DNA of 64,000 bases. Origin: Escherichia phage PSa2. The translations under genes were made by a program, and so were the position numbers. The notes below the pieces were generated by a model that was not told where the DNA came from, did no database searches, and saw nothing but the letters and a program-made list of their open reading frames with translations. The stretch lies in the sequence record OL770310; one strand, written 5' to 3'. Shown in pieces: positions 2,915-39,744 of this stretch. Each line of letters opens with the position of its first letter. The first letter of the stretch is position 1.

Positions 2915-3268
2915 TTAGATTATAATCAAGATTATTAGAGCGTATGTCAGATAATGCAGTAACTGATCAAATCCTAAAGCTATCCAAAACTTAGCATCGC
3001 TTATAGCGTATTTACAGCGTTGTGCTTTCCAATAATCTATAATAAAGTGTAGAATTAATTCCATAATAGCTAAAGCTATAGACATTCCTGGTGATGTGAA
3101 TAGGATTAGAATTGCAAATGTTAATCCAGCATGTACTAGCGAATGGGTTAATAATGGAAGTTTCCACCCTATTTTATGCGTCTTTCTTAGCATATATGGT
3201 GTTTGGAGTGGATAATCGGCCATAAAATGTTTTAGAAAGAATATGACAAATAATAGTATAATTAACAT
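2915..3268 (-). CDS. small integral membrane protein
   Basis: 117 aa, strongly hydrophobic with 3-4 predicted transmembrane (TM) helices. Confidence 0.5.
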   Translation of the reverse strand: MLIILLFVIFFLKHFMADYPLQTPYMLRKTHKIGWKLPLLTHSLVHAGLTFAILILFTSPGMSIALAIMELILHFIIDYWKAQRCKYAISDAKFWIALGFDQLLHYLTYALIILIII

Positions 3269-3271
3269 ATG

Positions 3272-4126
3272 CTACACCGTAAATGGATATGCAATAGCAG
3301 GATGGTGTTCATAGCCACGAACAGTAAAATCATCCTTACTTACCCACGTTAATACATCATCCAAAGTTCTAATATTTGGATTGATTTCTAAAGTAGGAGG
3401 TGCAAAAGGTTCACGATCGAATTGCTTGTGCTCCATCAGAACATTATACTGATCTTCATAGATATGAAGATTGATAATCTTTTGACGAGCAATACCTGGC
3501 TTAAGACCTGTAATCTGTGCCATAATAGCTAGAAGTGCATAGCATTGTACCATATTAAATACTTGGCCCAGCAAGAAATCATTAGACCTCTGGAAAGAGT
3601 TTAGGTATAGTGTATCACCTAAAATAGAGAATTGATGGGTATGCATACACGGACGTAGGCATCCTTTACGAAATTCCCCAGGGTTCCAAAAAGTTAAAAT
3701 TTCTCCACGATCGTCAATCCCTCTTTTCAAATTATGATAGACTTTGGCTAACTGATCAAATACCATACCATCAGAATTAGTCCAATGACGTCCTTGAACA
3801 CCATAGACTCGTCCCATATCATCTTCGCCTTTACGGAATGGATTACCTAGCCAGGCAATATTTTCATTTGCATTAGCATTCCATGTATTAACACCAATAG
3901 CGCGGAATTGTGCTGCTGAGTCGTACCCACGGAGATATCCGATCATTTCCATTATTGCTTGTTTAGCAAATGCTTTACGAGTAGTTACTAGCGGCAGTTC
4001 TCCTGCTCCTACGTTAAAGGTAAAGTCTGCATCAATAATGGTTAGGCAACGAACCCCCGTTCTAGGATTCGTTACCCATACACCCTCTTCTAGAATACGT
4101 TTTCCAGTTTCAATATATTGCTTCAT
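3272..4126 (-). CDS. thyA: thymidylate synthase
   Basis: Conserved ThyA motifs including active-site region [10 protein letters not shown] and [20 protein letters not shown]; ATGA overlap with the downstream gene. Confidence 0.9.
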
Positions 4127-35841: not shown

Positions 35842-36284
35842 TTAAAATTAAACTAACTCATCCAGATTGCATGCCGAAGATTGGTTCTGATGATGCCGCA
35901 GGTATGGATCTGCGTGCATTCTTCGGTACTAACCTTGCAGCAGATTTACGTGCTATTGCACCAGGCAAATCCCTTATGATTGACACCGGTGTCGCGGTGG
36001 AAATTCCGCGAGGTTGGTTTGGTTTGGTAGTTCCTCGCAGCTCTTTAGGTAAGCGTAAACTGATGATCGCAAATACCGCAGGAGTAATCGACTCAGACTA
36101 CCGTGGTACTATTAAGATGAACCTGTTTAACTACGGTTCTGAAATGCAAACTCTGGAGAATTTCGAGAGACTTTGTCAGCTAGTGGTACTACCACACTAT
36201 TCAACCCATCATTTTGAAATCGTTGACGAACTAGAGGAGACTGATCGTGGAGAAGGCGGCTTTGGAAGCTCAGGAAGTAAGTAA
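35838..36284 (+). CDS. dut: dUTP diphosphatase
   Basis: dUTPase motifs GMDLRA, IDSDYRG, RGEGGFGSSG. Confidence 0.85.
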   Translation: MIKIKLTHPDCMPKIGSDDAAGMDLRAFFGTNLAADLRAIAPGKSLMIDTGVAVEIPRGWFGLVVPRSSLGKRKLMIANTAGVIDSDYRGTIKMNLFNYGSEMQTLENFERLCQLVVLPHYSTHHFEIVDELEETDRGEGGFGSSGSK

Positions 36285-36513
36285 TTTTGCAGATCCTAAT
36301 ATGATAGGAGTAGATGTAGATCAATCTAATTTTTACAAGATTGATGTTAAATACGTTGAACCTGAGAAAATAGTATTGAGAGTTGATGTATCTGGTGTAG
36401 TAGAACAGTGGGATGAAGAAGGGTTTATCGCACTTTGCACTGAATCTCAAGATCCTATGCTTAAAGCCATGCTAGCAGTATATAATTTAGGTATTATTGC
36501 AGGTAGTAGATAA
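36247..36513 (+). CDS. hypothetical protein
   Basis: 88 aa ORF overlapping the dut 3' end, followed by a strong terminator. Confidence 0.4.
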   Translation: MEKAALEAQEVSNFADPNMIGVDVDQSNFYKIDVKYVEPEKIVLRVDVSGVVEQWDEEGFIALCTESQDPMLKAMLAVYNLGIIAGSR

Positions 36514-36520
36514 CAATAAA

Positions 36521-36555
36521 CCCCAGTGGACAATCCACTGGGGTTTTCTTTTATT
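36521..36555. terminator. bidirectional rho-independent terminator at the early/late convergence point
   Basis: CCCCAGTGG-ACAAT-CCACTGGGG hairpin flanked by an A-run and TTTTCTTTTATTT. Confidence 0.75.
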
Positions 36556-36596
36556 TAGTAAGGAGTTGTTTTACTAATTCCTTTATTTTATTAATC

Positions 36597-36611
36597 TTTT
36601 TTTTTTTTTTT
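36597..36611. repeat. T15 homopolymer followed by TGCATTTTGCATTTTGCGTTTT repeat
   Basis: Direct count of 15 consecutive T at 36597..36611. Confidence 0.8.
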
Positions 36612-36792
36612 GAGAGGGTGCAAAACGAACCTCTTGCATTTTGCATTTTGCGTTTTCATATTGTACATAAGAACAGCCTAAGAATCAGTGAACTGTTAAC
36701 ATAGCAGAACACGCGTTGCGTTGCTAGGATAATCAATGTTCAGGCTTGTTTCGCAGCAATATTTTTCAGTGACAGATTGCACTCCACTTATA

Positions 36793-39744
36793 TTACGGTA
36801 GTTCTGTAATTGTTGGAGCATTTCCGTTAAGCATTGATTTTACAAGGTTTTTCAGTTCATATAACTCATTGCGTAATACGTTAATTTCCTCCTGTTGATT
36901 ATCAATCTTTGCTTTTTGCTCTTTGAATGCGTTAACAAGAAGTGCGACAACACCATTATAGTTAATGCCTTTGATTGCCTCGCCTTTTGGGTCTAGCTGA
37001 CCATCGTTATTCAAAGAATGAACCGCTTCCGGCAAAACCCTTTCAACATCTTGTGCGATCAATCCAGCCTCAATACTATAAACGCTGTTTTCATCTTCAA
37101 TTAGATTGTTGCGCTTGTAGTAAGTATAACCAGTTAGATAATCAATTTTGTCGGATGCCGTTTCGATCTCTTTTAGATGTGCTTTTAATCTAATGTCAGA
37201 CCTGCTAACCCAATTTGATGCGCTACCATTTCCAGCACTATCAAAAACAAATTCAGCGCCATTAACATAAAGATGTGTTTCAGCGCCGCCAGAAGTCCAC
37301 GGAACAACATCCATGCCAGCTATCCAATCTTTCCCCCAATAAACAGATTTAAATATGGCAACCGCAGAATCAAATCCAGTGTGCTCAACAAGCAATCCAG
37401 ACGCACGACTACGCCAGTCGGCAAATAAACCACCCTCAACTTGACCAGCAATAAGAGCGTTTGGATAACCGCGCCTAACTCCATTTACATACATACCCCT
37501 TGCGTTATCATCAACATAAGATGATATGACCCTGTAAGTGTTTATTCCTGATGGAGTCCATGCAAATATTCTCGCTGAATCAGCAAACGCGCTTATGTGA
37601 CCATCACGATCCCATTTAAGACCTGAATCATGATCCCCAATTGCTATAGAGTAATCACCAAGAGCCGATTGAGCATCCGGACTTAATAACATCAATTGCC
37701 TATCAGATCTTGCTATCCTGTACCATCCACCCCAAGAGCCAGCACTACAAATGATACCCCATTTATTACCGTTCATTGCGGTTGCAACAATATTTCCATA
37801 CTCAACATGACCGTTTGCATTTTTACCGTGAACATGCAATTCATACATCCACCAACCAGAGGCTTCAGGTGGTTGATATGTAACAAGTTCTCCGCTTGAG
37901 TAATAACCGCTTTCTGCGTATGTTGACATAAACCCAAGAATGTTTGAATTATTAGGAATAATAATTGCTTGACCACCAACAGGAGTATTTAAGTTCTTTC
38001 TTGCTCCAACTTCAGTATTAGATCCAGTGCCGCCAGCATCAATTGAAAGAGGAATCCATCTTTCAGTTTCATCAGTCCAAACACCCCACGCCGCATCAGG
38101 TCTAATTGTGATTCGATAAGGTGAGTTACTCCCTGGTGCATACATCATAGTTTCTGTTTCTGTTTGCTTTAAACGATCAATGCCAAAGTTTATTTTTGCG
38201 CCCTCAACGTTTTCAGCACCAGTACCGCCAGCACCAATAGAAAGCGCAGATGTGCTGTTATTGTCATTACGCGCAACGCGCCATTCCCCATTGTTAGCGA
38301 TCCGTAATTCATAAGTCCATGCAGGATTACGAAAAGAATTATAAGCGCCAGCATATTGATCTTTTACAGAATTAACAGCCTCAACTTTTAGCGCCTCCCT
38401 TGCAAGGTCTTTGTTTGCAAGATCATTAAGATTCTGATCCTTCTTTAACGACGCTTGCATAACCTGTTCTGCTGATGCAGCCGCTGTCTCCGCTCTATCT
38501 GCTGCACTGGTGGCATTAGTAGCTTTCTCTCCTGCTATTGTAGCGCTACCAGCGGCCTCCAGGGCCTTGTCTGTTGCTGTCGTTGCAGCAGTAGTGGCGG
38601 TATTTTTAAATACCTCTGCTTCGTCTCTGTAGCCTTTGGTTGTGGTCATCGCTTGCGTAGCTGTATTCGCACTACCTGATGCACTTTGCTGAGCTAGCTT
38701 AGCAGCGTCTTCACTAGCTTTTGAGTTAATTTCACTAGTCTTTGTATTAGTTTCTGAGTTTTTTGCTGCTAATGCTGATGTGGAGGCTTGTGCAGCGAAT
38801 GCTTCTGCTTCATCCCTGAATCCTTTGGAGTCAGAAGCAGAGGCAGCGGAATCAGCAGCATTAGTCTCACTAGTTTTTGCTGCTGCTGCATATGCTGCTG
38901 CATTAGTCTCACTAGTTTTTGCATTAGTCTCACTAGTTTTTGCATTAATCTCACTAGTTTTTGCTGCAGCTGATGATTCTATAGCAGTAGTTTCACTAAT
39001 TTTTGCTGCAGCTGATGATTCTGCAGCTTTAGTAGCGGATGCAGCAGATTGAGAAGCAGAAATAGCAGACTGAGAAGCAGAAGCTTCAGAAGCTTCAGCA
39101 GAAATAGCAGATTCATTCTCAGAATTCTTAGCATTAAGTTCTGAAGTCTTAGCAGCTATCTCGGAGTCTTTTGCAGTAGTAGCGTATTCTCCCGCCTCTG
39201 TAGCAGAACCAGCAGCAGCAATAGCCTGATTGGTAGATTCAGTAGCAGATGTAGCAGCATTTTGCTCAGAAGTAGCAGCAGCAGTCTTAGCAGCCTCAGC
39301 GTCCTTCTTAGCTTGTTCAGCTAATAGACGACTCTGTTCAGCATTTTGTGCAGCAAGTTCAGCAGAATCACGGAATCCTTTGGATTCCTCAGCTGACGTA
39401 GCAGAGGCATCAGCACTATCTTTAGATAAACCAGCTTGTCTCTCCGCTTCAGTAGCAGAAGCAGCAGATTGAGTTGCAGAAGTTTCTGAAGAGTTAGCGT
39501 AAATTGCAGCTAGGTTCTCCGAGTCCTTAGCATTTGTTTCAGATTCTTTTGCTGCAATTTCAGAATCTTTTGCTGCTGCGGCAGAAGCAGCAGAGGCCTC
39601 AACAGCCCCTGTTAGTTCACTAGCAGTAATAGAACTAATAGAAGTACCTAAAACTACCGTATACTTAGGATATTTACTAGCAGTAGTTGTAGTGTCATCT
39701 ATGTTCAGAATCTGCTGTACAATAATTTTAGTTTTAAGTGCCAT
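36793..39744 (-). CDS. side (L-shaped-type) tail fibre with C-terminal intramolecular chaperone domain
   Basis: 983 aa; Ala/Ser/Thr-rich repeats (SETNAKTSETNAK), then SRSDIRLKAHL...chaperone-like C-terminus (S74-type SDxRxK motif). Confidence 0.75.
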   Translation of the reverse strand: MALKTKIIVQQILNIDDTTTTASKYPKYTVVLGTSISSITASELTGAVEASAASAAAAKDSEIAAKESETNAKDSENLAAIYANSSETSATQSAASATEAERQAGLSKDSADASATSAEESKGFRDSAELAAQNAEQSRLLAEQAKKDAEAAKTAAATSEQNAATSATESTNQAIAAAGSATEAGEYATTAKDSEIAAKTSELNAKNSENESAISAEASEASASQSAISASQSAASATKAAESSAAAKISETTAIESSAAAKTSEINAKTSETNAKTSETNAAAYAAAAKTSETNAADSAASASDSKGFRDEAEAFAAQASTSALAAKNSETNTKTSEINSKASEDAAKLAQQSASGSANTATQAMTTTKGYRDEAEVFKNTATTAATTATDKALEAAGSATIAGEKATNATSAADRAETAAASAEQVMQASLKKDQNLNDLANKDLAREALKVEAVNSVKDQYAGAYNSFRNPAWTYELRIANNGEWRVARNDNNSTSALSIGAGGTGAENVEGAKINFGIDRLKQTETETMMYAPGSNSPYRITIRPDAAWGVWTDETERWIPLSIDAGGTGSNTEVGARKNLNTPVGGQAIIIPNNSNILGFMSTYAESGYYSSGELVTYQPPEASGWWMYELHVHGKNANGHVEYGNIVATAMNGNKWGIICSAGSWGGWYRIARSDRQLMLLSPDAQSALGDYSIAIGDHDSGLKWDRDGHISAFADSARIFAWTPSGINTYRVISSYVDDNARGMYVNGVRRGYPNALIAGQVEGGLFADWRSRASGLLVEHTGFDSAVAIFKSVYWGKDWIAGMDVVPWTSGGAETHLYVNGAEFVFDSAGNGSASNWVSRSDIRLKAHLKEIETASDKIDYLTGYTYYKRNNLIEDENSVYSIEAGLIAQDVERVLPEAVHSLNNDGQLDPKGEAIKGINYNGVVALLVNAFKEQKAKIDNQQEEINVLRNELYELKNLVKSMLNGNAPTITELP
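38858..39027. repeat. tandem 21-bp coding repeats inside tail-fibre gene
   Basis: GCATTAGTCTCACTAGTTTTT at 38858, 38900, 38921, variant 38942; adjacent duplicated TTTTGCTGCAGCTGATGATTCT. Confidence 0.8.

What the first reader, a model, noticed from the sequence alone, without database searches (positions are those of the whole stretch)
36514..36792. Early/late convergence zone: bidirectional terminator, T15 tract and short tandem repeat
Plus-strand early genes and minus-strand late genes converge here. Besides the strong bidirectional terminator (36521..36555) there is a 15-nt T homopolymer (36597..36611) followed by TGCATTTTGCATTTTGCGTTTT, and about 180 bp with no ORF. Long homopolymers are slippage- and polymerase-error-prone, and such junctions in related phages are hot spots for insertions.
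Basis: seen in the sequence. Interest (0 to 1): 0.4.

Follow-up and report, generated by a model that had tools for sequence, protein, structure and literature searches.

The report
Gene relics behind a phage terminator
The ORF-free stretch between the early and late genes of this T5-like phage is a conserved two-way terminator followed by the decayed remains of two older genes; a run of T's at their joint has grown by replication slippage, so the region looks ordinary and is probably non-functional.

Summary
The terminator hairpin (36518-36546), the T15 run (36597-36611), the heptamer repeat (36634-36656) and about 245 nt without a credible gene (36547-36792) are all present. T15 is the only homopolymer longer than 6 in the 64-kb window.

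The window is an Epseptimavirus (T5-like) genome. Replication genes on the + strand meet tail and head genes on the - strand at this point.

- **Terminator:** it is the only element shared by all T5-like relatives. It is 99% paired over 26 versions, with 3 compensatory pairs. In many relatives it is all that separates the two stop codons (36-37 nt).
- **Relic 1 (36551-36596):** the last 15 codons and stop of an older tail-fibre gene.
- **Relic 2 (36612-~36785):** the last third of a phrog_9288 gene. This gene is intact next to the tail-fibre gene in T1-like phages. Here it carries two in-frame stops and a frameshift.
- **T tract:** it sits at the joint of the two relics and is 4 to at least 25 nt long in 20 relatives. 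The heptamer has 1-4 copies, and one phage has the whole module duplicated in tandem.

A sub-threshold preQ1-riboswitch hit on the - strand is a look-alike made by the homopolymer. Verdict: ordinary, low interest.

The parts
36247..36513 (+). Last + strand (early-region) gene: an 88-aa DUF7369 / phrog_5592 protein overlapping the end of dUTPase.
   Evidence: ORF. Pfam PF24084, E 2.8e-34. PHROG 5592. Annotated as a hypothetical protein in Seafire, fuchur and bobsandoy.
36518..36546 (.). Predicted bidirectional intrinsic terminator. The stem is 13 bp with loop CAA. It is followed by TTTTCTTTTATTT on the + strand and TTTATTGTTATCT on the - strand.
   Evidence: Terminator scan on both strands. Folding energy -22.2 / -22.7 kcal/mol. 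Present in nearly all T5-like loci examined, and often the only sequence between the two stop codons. 26 distinct versions are 99.1% paired, with 3 pairs showing changes on both sides. Annotated as a terminator on both strands in Seafire.
36551..36596 (-). Relic of the 3' end of an older lateral tail-fibre (ltf) gene. The - strand reads (K)INKIKELVKQLLTK-stop, at the same distance from the terminator as the live ltf stop codon in sister phages.
   Evidence: Side-by-side sequences: L009, L010, L013, L023 and L032 end their fibre gene here with ...EIDELKELVKQLLAK*. blastn of window 36502-36583 against L009 gives 87.8%. tblastn of the L009 ltf C-terminus against the L008 relic gives QKITKLKELVKQLLTK, 75% identity. 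Alignment A1.
36597..36611 (.). T15 homopolymer (A15 on the - strand) at the joint between the two relics. It is length-polymorphic.
   Evidence: Lengths in relatives are 4, 4, 5, 6, 7, 9, 11, 12, 12, 12, 13, 14, 15, 15, >=15, >=15, 16, 17, 18 and >=25. Short forms read CAGTACAAAAG (ende, L008), which matches CAG-CAAGAAATT of the live L009 ltf.
36612..36785 (-). Pseudogene fragment: the last third (about aa 146-200 of 233) of a phrog_9288 gene. This gene lies directly downstream of the lateral tail-fibre gene in T1-like phages. The fragment has in-frame stops TAA (36696-36698) and TAG (36678-36680), and a frameshift near 36648.
   Evidence: blastn gives 73-77% identity to Tlsvirus and Hanrivervirus genes. 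tblastn E 1e-13: QSVTEKYCCETSLNIDYPSNATRVLLC*QFTDS*AVLMYNMKTQ against AERCCCETNLNIERQGNATRDLLRQQFADSQAVLICDMKAQ, then in another frame KCKMQEVRFAPSQ against KAQLQEARFALSQ. Near full-length pseudogene copies carrying the same two stops occur in vaffelhjerte, ende, RA40 and L008.
36613..36634 (.). Small hairpin AGAGG-N12-CCTCT. On the - strand, followed by A15, it gives a sub-threshold PreQ1-I riboswitch hit. It corresponds to the ex-codons QEVRFAPSQ.
   Evidence: Rfam RF00522 scores 26.1 bits against a gathering score of 39. The score tracks tract length and disappears in relatives with short tracts and in intact Tls genes. The stem is broken without compensation in EPS7 and in bobsandoy copy 1. 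The hairpin is not part of the minimum-energy fold.
36634..36656 (.). Heptamer tandem repeat TTGCATT x3.3. It is a slippage expansion inside the ex-codons MKTQ(NAK)n.
   Evidence: TRF. Copy number is 1-4 among relatives. Alignment A1 shows the extra units as insertions relative to vaffelhjerte, ende and the Tls genes.
36793..39744 (-). Current lateral tail-fibre gene (983 aa) with a Peptidase_S74 chaperone domain. Its distal half is of Tlsvirus type.
   Evidence: ORF. PF13884, E 1.6e-10. aa 433-983 are 62-71% identical to Tlsvirus fibres, and nt 36782-37455 are 84.3% identical to Salmonella phage 36.

Best explanation
The region is the 3' trailer of the late tail-fibre (ltf) transcription unit of a T5-like (Epseptimavirus) phage.

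The only element under visible selection is the hairpin at 36518-36546. It most likely stops both the rightward early transcripts and the leftward late transcripts.

Between that hairpin and the current ltf stop codon lies dead DNA left by tail-fibre module exchange:
- the last 15 codons of the previous ltf gene, still at its original distance from the terminator;
- the last third of a phrog_9288 gene, which travels with lateral tail-fibre genes in T1-like phages. It was already a pseudogene, and most of it was then deleted.

Freed from coding constraint, this DNA accumulates slippage products:
- an A-rich codon run at the relic joint (CAAAAG) grew into A15/T15;
- a 7-nt unit grew from 1 to 2-4 copies;
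- one relative duplicated the whole module in tandem.

What is shown and what is inferred:
- Shown: the homologies, the stop codons and frameshift, the length polymorphism, and covariation in the terminator.
- Inferred: that the terminator works in both directions, that the relics have no function, and that the mechanism is polymerase slippage.
For: - Identity and layout: the closest records are Epseptimavirus genomes at about 97%. Replication genes are on the + strand and structural genes on the - strand.
- Terminator: conserved in nearly all T5-like loci and alone in the gap in many of them (36-37 nt). It is 99.1% paired with 3 compensatory pairs. Sliding the partner columns drops pairing to 59% or less.
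- Old ltf relic: it matches the live ltf 3' end of L009, L010 and L013, including stop codon position.
- phrog_9288 relic: nucleotide and protein homology to intact Drexlerviridae genes, with two stops and a frameshift. Longer pseudogene copies with the same two stops occur in other Epseptimavirus genomes.
- Fibre exchange: the window's ltf distal half is 84% identical in nucleotides to a Tlsvirus fibre gene. About 580 nt that separate fibre gene and relic in that phage are missing here.
- Slippage: T tract of 4 to at least 25 nt, heptamer of 1-4 copies, and a tandem duplication in bobsandoy. Among close relatives all indels fall in the relics and none in the flanking coding sequences.
- Literature: LTF loci of T5-like and T1-like phages are described as recombination-variable (PMC10644984, PMC8594841).
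Against: - There are no transcript data, so termination and the absence of a transcript start are predictions.
- Among the closest relatives the phrog_9288 relic shows as few substitutions (2.1% variable columns) as the adjacent ltf coding sequence (1.5%). This fits a recently shared module, and it means neutrality cannot be demonstrated from substitution rates.
- A long A/T tract persists in many isolates (11-18 nt in most window-type phages). This could reflect mutational bias, but weak selection cannot be ruled out.
- The order of events (pseudogenisation, deletion, fibre replacement) is only partly resolved.
Confidence: 0.85

Rival explanations
1. A preQ1-I-like riboswitch or A-rich pseudoknot lies on the - strand (36597-36639): a P1 hairpin AGAGG/CCUCU with a UUC loop start and the ligand-pairing C, followed by an A-rich tail. 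It would sense a 7-deazaguanine metabolite in the ltf 3' UTR.
For: Rfam RF00522 hit of 26.1 bits, E 0.011 in a 1.6-kb search and 0.0017 in 261 nt. From my own recollection, it resembles the B. subtilis queC aptamer (AGAGGUUCUAGCUACACCCUCUAUAAAAAACUAAGG).
Against: - The score is below the gathering score of 39 in every phage tested.
- The 3' CUAAGG that forms P2 and the Shine-Dalgarno sequence is replaced by plain A's.
- The score follows the homopolymer length: 26.1 at T15-25, 23.5 at A9, 20.2 at A7, and no hit at A4-6.
- The short-tract forms match the live ltf sequence and so look older, which makes the 'tail' a recent expansion.
- The stem is broken without compensation in EPS7 and bobsandoy copy 1.
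- The hairpin is the ex-codons QEVRFAPSQ of a pseudogene, and intact homologues give no hit.
- The hairpin is not in the minimum-energy fold.
- No gene lies downstream on the - strand to be regulated.
Confidence: 0.02
2. The short ORFs are real genes: a 31-aa ORF (36551-36646, -) that reads through A15 as a lysine run, and a 41-aa ORF (36696-36821, -). Some annotators do call hypothetical proteins here.
For: Both ORFs are listed. PHANOTATE and RAST annotations in SB10 place hypothetical proteins at these positions.
Against: - The 31-aa frame depends on tract length. Relatives have 11, 12, 13, 14, 15, 16, 17 and 18 T's, so the frame is not kept.
- Its C-terminus is the old ltf tail, and its N-terminus sits in the expanded heptamer.
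- The 41-aa ORF begins in an alternative frame over the ltf 3' end, runs into the pseudogene frame, and ends at the relic's first nonsense codon.
- Neither ORF has its own Shine-Dalgarno sequence, as read directly from the sequence.
Confidence: 0.02
3. A DNA-level signal: the T tract acts as an unwinding or UP element and the TTGCATT repeats act as iterons or a -35 box. This would be a replication origin, or a promoter driving antisense transcription into ltf.
For: The layout of an AT tract plus short direct repeats superficially resembles an origin or promoter. The TTGCAT units resemble a -35 hexamer.
Against: - The promoter scan finds no site in 36547-36792 on either strand, and the count for the whole region equals the shuffled expectation.
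- The repeat number is 1-4 and the tract is 4 to at least 25 nt among viable isolates, so spacing is not kept.
- Both features are absent from most T5-like phages, including T5, whose junctions hold unrelated sequence or only the terminator.
- Both features derive from ex-coding sequence.
Confidence: 0.03
4. The homopolymer is a contingency (phase-variable) element. Changes in its length would tune ltf mRNA stability or read-through, and so the tail-fibre dose.
For: The length is highly polymorphic. The tract lies within the predicted ltf 3' UTR, between the stop codon and the terminator.
Against: - It lies about 180 nt downstream of the stop codon and outside any coding or predicted promoter sequence.
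- Phages with no tract at all, where the terminator follows the ltf stop directly, are common.
- There is no evidence of bimodal lengths.
- The tract sits inside a decaying pseudogene together with other drifting repeats. A second A run, A5-8 near 36753-36757, also varies.
Confidence: 0.05

Closest known systems
Intrinsic (Rho-independent) bidirectional terminators between convergent operons, as annotated at this position in Salmonella phage Seafire (MK050846.2)
   Same: A G+C-rich perfect hairpin flanked by A's on one side and T's on the other, placed between convergent stop codons. It is conserved with compensatory changes.
   Different: Nothing in the anatomy differs. Function is predicted, not measured. 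The U tail on the - strand is interrupted (UUUAUUGUUAUCU).
phrog_9288 genes of Drexlerviridae (for example Escherichia phage KarlJaspers bas06_0034 'putative sugar-binding protein', and Salmonella phage UTK0007 PJM35_0057)
   Same: Window 36612-36785 is homologous to codons about 146-200 of these genes. It has the same position, directly downstream of a lateral tail-fibre gene of the same type.
   Different: Only the last third remains. It has two nonsense codons, a frameshift, an expanded heptamer, and fusion to an old ltf tail, so it is a pseudogene fragment. The function of the intact family is unknown (no Pfam match).
Lateral tail-fibre module exchange in T5-like phages (ltf/ltfA/ltfB loci; Golomidova et al. 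2016 as cited in PMC10644984) and in T1-like phages (PMC8594841)
   Same: The fibre locus is mosaic, with the distal half shared across phage families (84% nucleotide identity to a Tlsvirus). The junction varies in length and content.
   Different: Those papers describe the intact genes. The relics left downstream of the exchange are not described in the text I read.
PreQ1-I riboswitch aptamer (Rfam RF00522)
   Same: A 5-bp P1, a UUC loop start, a C before the 3' arm, and an A-rich tail.
   Different: It scores below the gathering score, lacks the P2/SD segment, and has no regulated gene. It is not conserved among relatives and derives from a pseudogene plus a recent homopolymer.

Membership tests
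Intrinsic bidirectional terminator | A stable G+C-rich stem-loop followed by a U-rich tract on each transcribed strand | tested here: met
   13-bp stem with 7 G-C pairs, -22 kcal/mol on both strands. T-rich tails are TCTTTTATTT (+) and ATTGTTATCT (-); the - strand tail is weaker.
Intrinsic bidirectional terminator | The structure is conserved through compensatory changes in relatives | tested here: met
   26 distinct sequences are 99.1% paired, and 3 of 13 pairs change on both sides. Versions with the partner columns slid reach 59% pairing at most.
Intrinsic bidirectional terminator | Transcript 3' ends map to the U tract in vivo or in vitro | not testable with these tools
   No RNA data are available. 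This needs Term-seq or in-vitro transcription.
Pseudogene of phrog_9288 | Significant sequence homology to intact family members in conserved synteny | tested here: met
   blastn 73-77% identity, tblastn E 1e-13. The relic lies downstream of a Tlsvirus-type fibre gene, as in Tlsvirus.
Pseudogene of phrog_9288 | The reading frame is disrupted (nonsense, frameshift or truncation) | tested here: met
   TAA at 36696-36698, TAG at 36678-36680, a frameshift near 36648, and the first ~145 codons missing. The same two stops occur in the longer Epseptimavirus copies.
Pseudogene of phrog_9288 | Relaxed constraint, shown by substitution pattern or indels | tested here: inconclusive
   All indels among close relatives fall in the relic, and the hairpin-breaking changes are uncompensated. 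There are too few substitutions (4 variable columns) to test rates.
PreQ1-I riboswitch (RF00522) | Score at or above Rfam's gathering score | tested here: not met
   26.1 bits against 39. The best score in 10 related loci is also 26.1.
PreQ1-I riboswitch (RF00522) | A 3' tail segment (CUAAGG-like) able to form the P2 pseudoknot with the loop | tested here: not met
   The model's CUAAGG positions are aligned to A's or gaps.
PreQ1-I riboswitch (RF00522) | Conservation or covariation of P1 and the tail among homologues | tested here: not met
   The stem is broken in EPS7 and bobsandoy copy 1. The tail is only 4-6 nt in ende, L008, SB6 and Shivani. Intact Tls genes have no hairpin.
PreQ1-I riboswitch (RF00522) | An expression platform and a downstream queuosine-related gene | tested here: not met
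   No ORF lies downstream on the - strand. The next feature is the convergent terminator and then the antisense of early genes.

The most novel reading that the evidence does not exclude
The A15 tract and adjacent hairpin in the ltf 3' UTR might have been co-opted from dead coding sequence into a working RNA element. This could be an Hfq- or ligand-binding A-rich pseudoknot, or a length-variable stability switch that sets the tail-fibre dose. It would be a contingency locus in a virulent phage.
Probability: 0.04. Interest if true: 0.55.

Novelty: new member of a known kind. Interest (0 to 1): 0.12.

Why it matters
The main value is for annotation and quality control.

- The stretch should be annotated as a terminator plus two gene relics. 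It should not carry the 'hypothetical proteins' that some pipelines call here.
- The homopolymer is a known trouble spot. Three GenBank records start or end inside it, so its reported length should not be trusted without long or Sanger reads.
- It is a neat, datable footprint of tail-fibre tip exchange between two phage families (Tlsvirus-like Drexlerviridae and Epseptimavirus). This is relevant to people engineering the host range of T5-like Salmonella phages.
- It opens no new biological question.

Tried and rejected
- **Rfam at permissive thresholds**. Only the sub-threshold PreQ1 look-alike appeared, together with terminator-driven leader and sRNA look-alikes (His_leader, rimP, NsiR1, Spot_42), all far below their gathering scores. 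I rejected them.
- **Sigma-70 promoter scan**. No site lies within 36547-36792.
- **Second copies of the hairpin motif.** There are none elsewhere in the 64-kb window. An IMG/VR pattern scan found only two contigs that I already held.
- **The 31-aa and 41-aa ORFs as genes.** Rejected because the frame is not conserved and both are built from relic frames.
- **Iteron or origin reading.** Rejected because copy number and spacing are not conserved.
- **T5 nick site** (from memory, the consensus contains GCGC). There is no GCGC in 36547-36792 as read, so I did not pursue it.
- **Substitution-rate test for neutrality of the relic**. Too few differences among close relatives, so it is inconclusive.
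- **Literature search**. I found general statements on LTF locus variability, but nothing on this junction, the relics or the homopolymer.

Full report
**What the window is.** The 900 nt around the finding match Epseptimavirus (T5-like, Demerecviridae) genomes at about 97%. The best records are Salmonella phages fuchur and SB10. On the + strand the annotated neighbours are D14, the flap endonuclease D15, dUTPase and an 88-aa DUF7369 protein. On the - strand a 983-aa tail-fibre protein with a Peptidase_S74 chaperone domain ends at 36793. Long ORFs are on the + strand from 9.7 to 36.5 kb; those tested are DNA polymerase and the flap exonuclease. Long ORFs are on the - strand from 36.8 to 62.5 kb; those tested are the straight fibre, tape measure, major head protein and receptor-binding protein. 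The early/late convergence is therefore real in gene layout. That these classes are 'early' and 'late' rests on established knowledge of T5.

**Check of the observation.** Every item is present.
- The hairpin has a 13-bp stem at 36518-36546 and is called as a terminator on both strands. Its folding energy is about -22 kcal/mol either way.
- T15 lies at 36597-36611 and the repeat TTGCATT x3.3 at 36634-36656.
- T15 is the only homopolymer above 6 nt in the whole 64-kb window, against 0.0012 expected from composition. It is not a chance feature.

**The terminator is the only element that is conserved.**
- I fetched 35 loci from IMG/VR through the dUTPase protein and more from GenBank phage records.
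- In many T5-like relatives the two convergent stop codons are 36-37 nt apart, and the gap holds nothing but this hairpin.
- Over 26 distinct versions the 13 pairs are 99.1% paired, and three pairs change on both sides (for example CAGTGG/CCACTG to CAGCGG/CCGCTG). Sliding the partner columns drops pairing to 59% or less.
- Seafire's annotators mark it as a terminator on both strands.
- Activity itself was not measured.

**What the ORF-free stretch is: relic 1.**
- In the sister phages L009, L010, L013, L023 and L032 the fibre gene ends a few bases from the terminator with ...EIDELKELVKQLLAK-stop.
- The window keeps that same sequence at the same place (36551-36596, - strand: INKIKELVKQLLTK-stop), although its own fibre gene now ends 240 nt further away.
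- In relatives with short tracts the match extends further: ende CAGTACAAAAGATTACTAAACTAAAGG against L009 CAG-CAAGAAATTGACGAACTCAAGG.

**What the ORF-free stretch is: relic 2.**
- Segment 36611-36780 matches, at 73-77% nucleotide identity, a gene of T1-like phages that lies directly downstream of their lateral tail-fibre gene. Examples are Tlsvirus UTK0007 and phage 36, and Hanrivervirus KarlJaspers.
- The intact protein (233 aa in KarlJaspers) belongs to phrog_9288 and has no Pfam match and no known function.
- Translated, the window reads QSVTEKYCCETSLNIDYPSNATRVLLC*QFTDS*AVLMYNMKTQ against AERCCCETNLNIERQGNATRDLLRQQFADSQAVLICDMKAQ (E 1e-13). That is two in-frame stops. After a frameshift it continues as KCKMQEVRFAPSQ against KAQLQEARFALSQ.
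- Other Epseptimavirus genomes (vaffelhjerte, ende, RA40, IMG/VR L008) keep a nearly full-length copy with its own ribosome-binding site. Those copies carry an extra TAG near codon 110, the same two downstream stops, and frameshifts.
- The gene was therefore already dead before most of it was deleted in the window's lineage.

**Where the fibre came from.**
- The distal half of the window's fibre protein (aa 433-983) is 62-71% identical to Tlsvirus fibres. Nucleotides 36782-37455 are 84.3% identical to Salmonella phage 36.
- In that phage about 580 nt separate the fibre stop from the part homologous to the relic. In the window the gap is 13 nt.
- The simplest history is exchange of a fibre-tip module together with its downstream gene between T1-like and T5-like phages, joined to the last 45 nt of the resident ltf. 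Decay and deletion of the passenger gene followed.
- The exact order of these events is not resolved.
- Published work describes these fibre loci as recombination-variable in both families (PMC10644984, PMC8594841).

**The T tract and the heptamer are slippage products.**
- In 20 relatives the tract at this exact joint measures 4, 4, 5, 6, 7, 9, 11, 12, 12, 12, 13, 14, 15, 15, >=15, >=15, 16, 17, 18 and >=25 nt.
- The short forms still read as the A-rich ltf codons.
- The heptamer has 1-4 copies, and the extra units appear as insertions inside the ex-codons MKTQ.
- Phage bobsandoy carries the whole module (tract, hairpin and heptamers) twice in tandem.
- A second A run inside the relic, near 36753-36757, also varies from A5 to A8.
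- Among close relatives every indel lies in the relics and none in the flanking coding sequences.
- Heterogeneity within a single lysate could not be tested.

**Rivals.**
- *PreQ1-I riboswitch.* On the - strand the small hairpin (36613-36634) followed by A15 gives a PreQ1-I hit of 26.1 bits, with E 0.011 in a 1.6-kb search. I took this seriously because the P1 arms, the UUC loop start and the C before the 3' arm all match. It fails every membership test:
  - It is below the gathering score of 39 in all phages.
  - The CUAAGG segment is missing.
  - The score falls with tract length and vanishes in short-tract relatives and in intact Tls genes.
  - The stem is broken without compensation in EPS7 and bobsandoy.
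  - The hairpin is not in the minimum-energy fold.
  - No gene lies downstream.
  - The hairpin is simply the ex-codons QEVRFAPSQ.
- *Short ORFs.* The 31-aa and 41-aa ORFs are built from relic frames. The 31-aa frame changes with tract length.
- *Promoter.* No promoter-like site lies in the stretch.
- *Iterons or origin.* Variable copy number and spacing, and absence from most T5-like phages including T5 itself, argue against this reading.

**Verdict.** What is really there is a conserved convergent terminator plus a small graveyard of two gene relics whose simple repeats are drifting. This is an ordinary outcome of tail-fibre module exchange. It matters mainly for annotation (spurious small ORFs, an unannotated pseudogene) and for sequencing quality at the homopolymer. 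I rate interest at 0.12.

Noticed in passing
window 36531-36533; loci L003, L009, L020, L007, L011, L012, L027 (alignment A2): The terminator loop exists in two reverse-complement forms among relatives: CAA versus TTG, and ACAAAAT versus ATTTTGT. The stem is unchanged. This looks like repeated inversion of the hairpin tip (template switching across a perfect palindrome).
   Followed up: partly
GenBank LC788710.1 (Wa28, L049 1-25), LC788709.1 (Shin27, L052 1-15), NC_103216.1 (SP76, L058, last bases of the record); also SE20 and MSP1: Several deposited 'complete' genomes start or end inside, or within about 100 nt of, this T tract. This suggests assemblies break at the homopolymer and that the deposited tract lengths (for example at least 25 in Wa28) are unreliable.
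   Followed up: partly
L008 about 3190-3200 and L044 (ende) about 1690-1705: The C/G run of one terminator arm is expanded to C10 in L008 (G12 in ende, whose locus is held in the opposite orientation), while the other arm keeps 4-5. This is either a second slippage-prone homopolymer or a sequencing artefact in those records.
   Followed up: no
window 36782-38450 (ltf aa 433-983) versus L038/L039: The distal half of the T5-like lateral tail fibre is shared with Tlsvirus (Drexlerviridae) fibres. Identity is 84% in nucleotides over 675 nt to Salmonella phage 36, and 62-71% in amino acids. This is an inter-family exchange of the receptor-binding tip.
   Followed up: partly
L002 (bobsandoy) 1995-2150: There is a 96-nt tandem duplication of the tract-hairpin-heptamer module. 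The first copy has TGAATTT units instead of TGCATTT, and the join between copies is A9T12. It is annotated only as 'repeat_region'.
   Followed up: partly
L020 (T5, IMGVR_UViG_638276020) 3173-3401; L015, L022 and L007 junctions: T5 and other Tequintavirus-like loci carry different, unrelated filler of 220-385 nt at the same junction. Some include a second terminator-like hairpin next to the fibre stop (AAAGGGGCCTAATGACCCCTCTTTTTT in T5). I did not check whether these are also gene relics.
   Followed up: no
L040:2360-3061(-) and homologues (phrog_9288): The intact protein has a Gly-rich N-terminus, a CCCE motif and a C-terminal TGCCG(C). It has no Pfam match and no known function. It is widespread next to lateral tail-fibre genes in Drexlerviridae and in other siphoviruses with genomes of about 50-60 kb. 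In every Epseptimavirus copy examined (four near full-length copies plus the truncated window-type relics) it is a pseudogene.
   Followed up: partly
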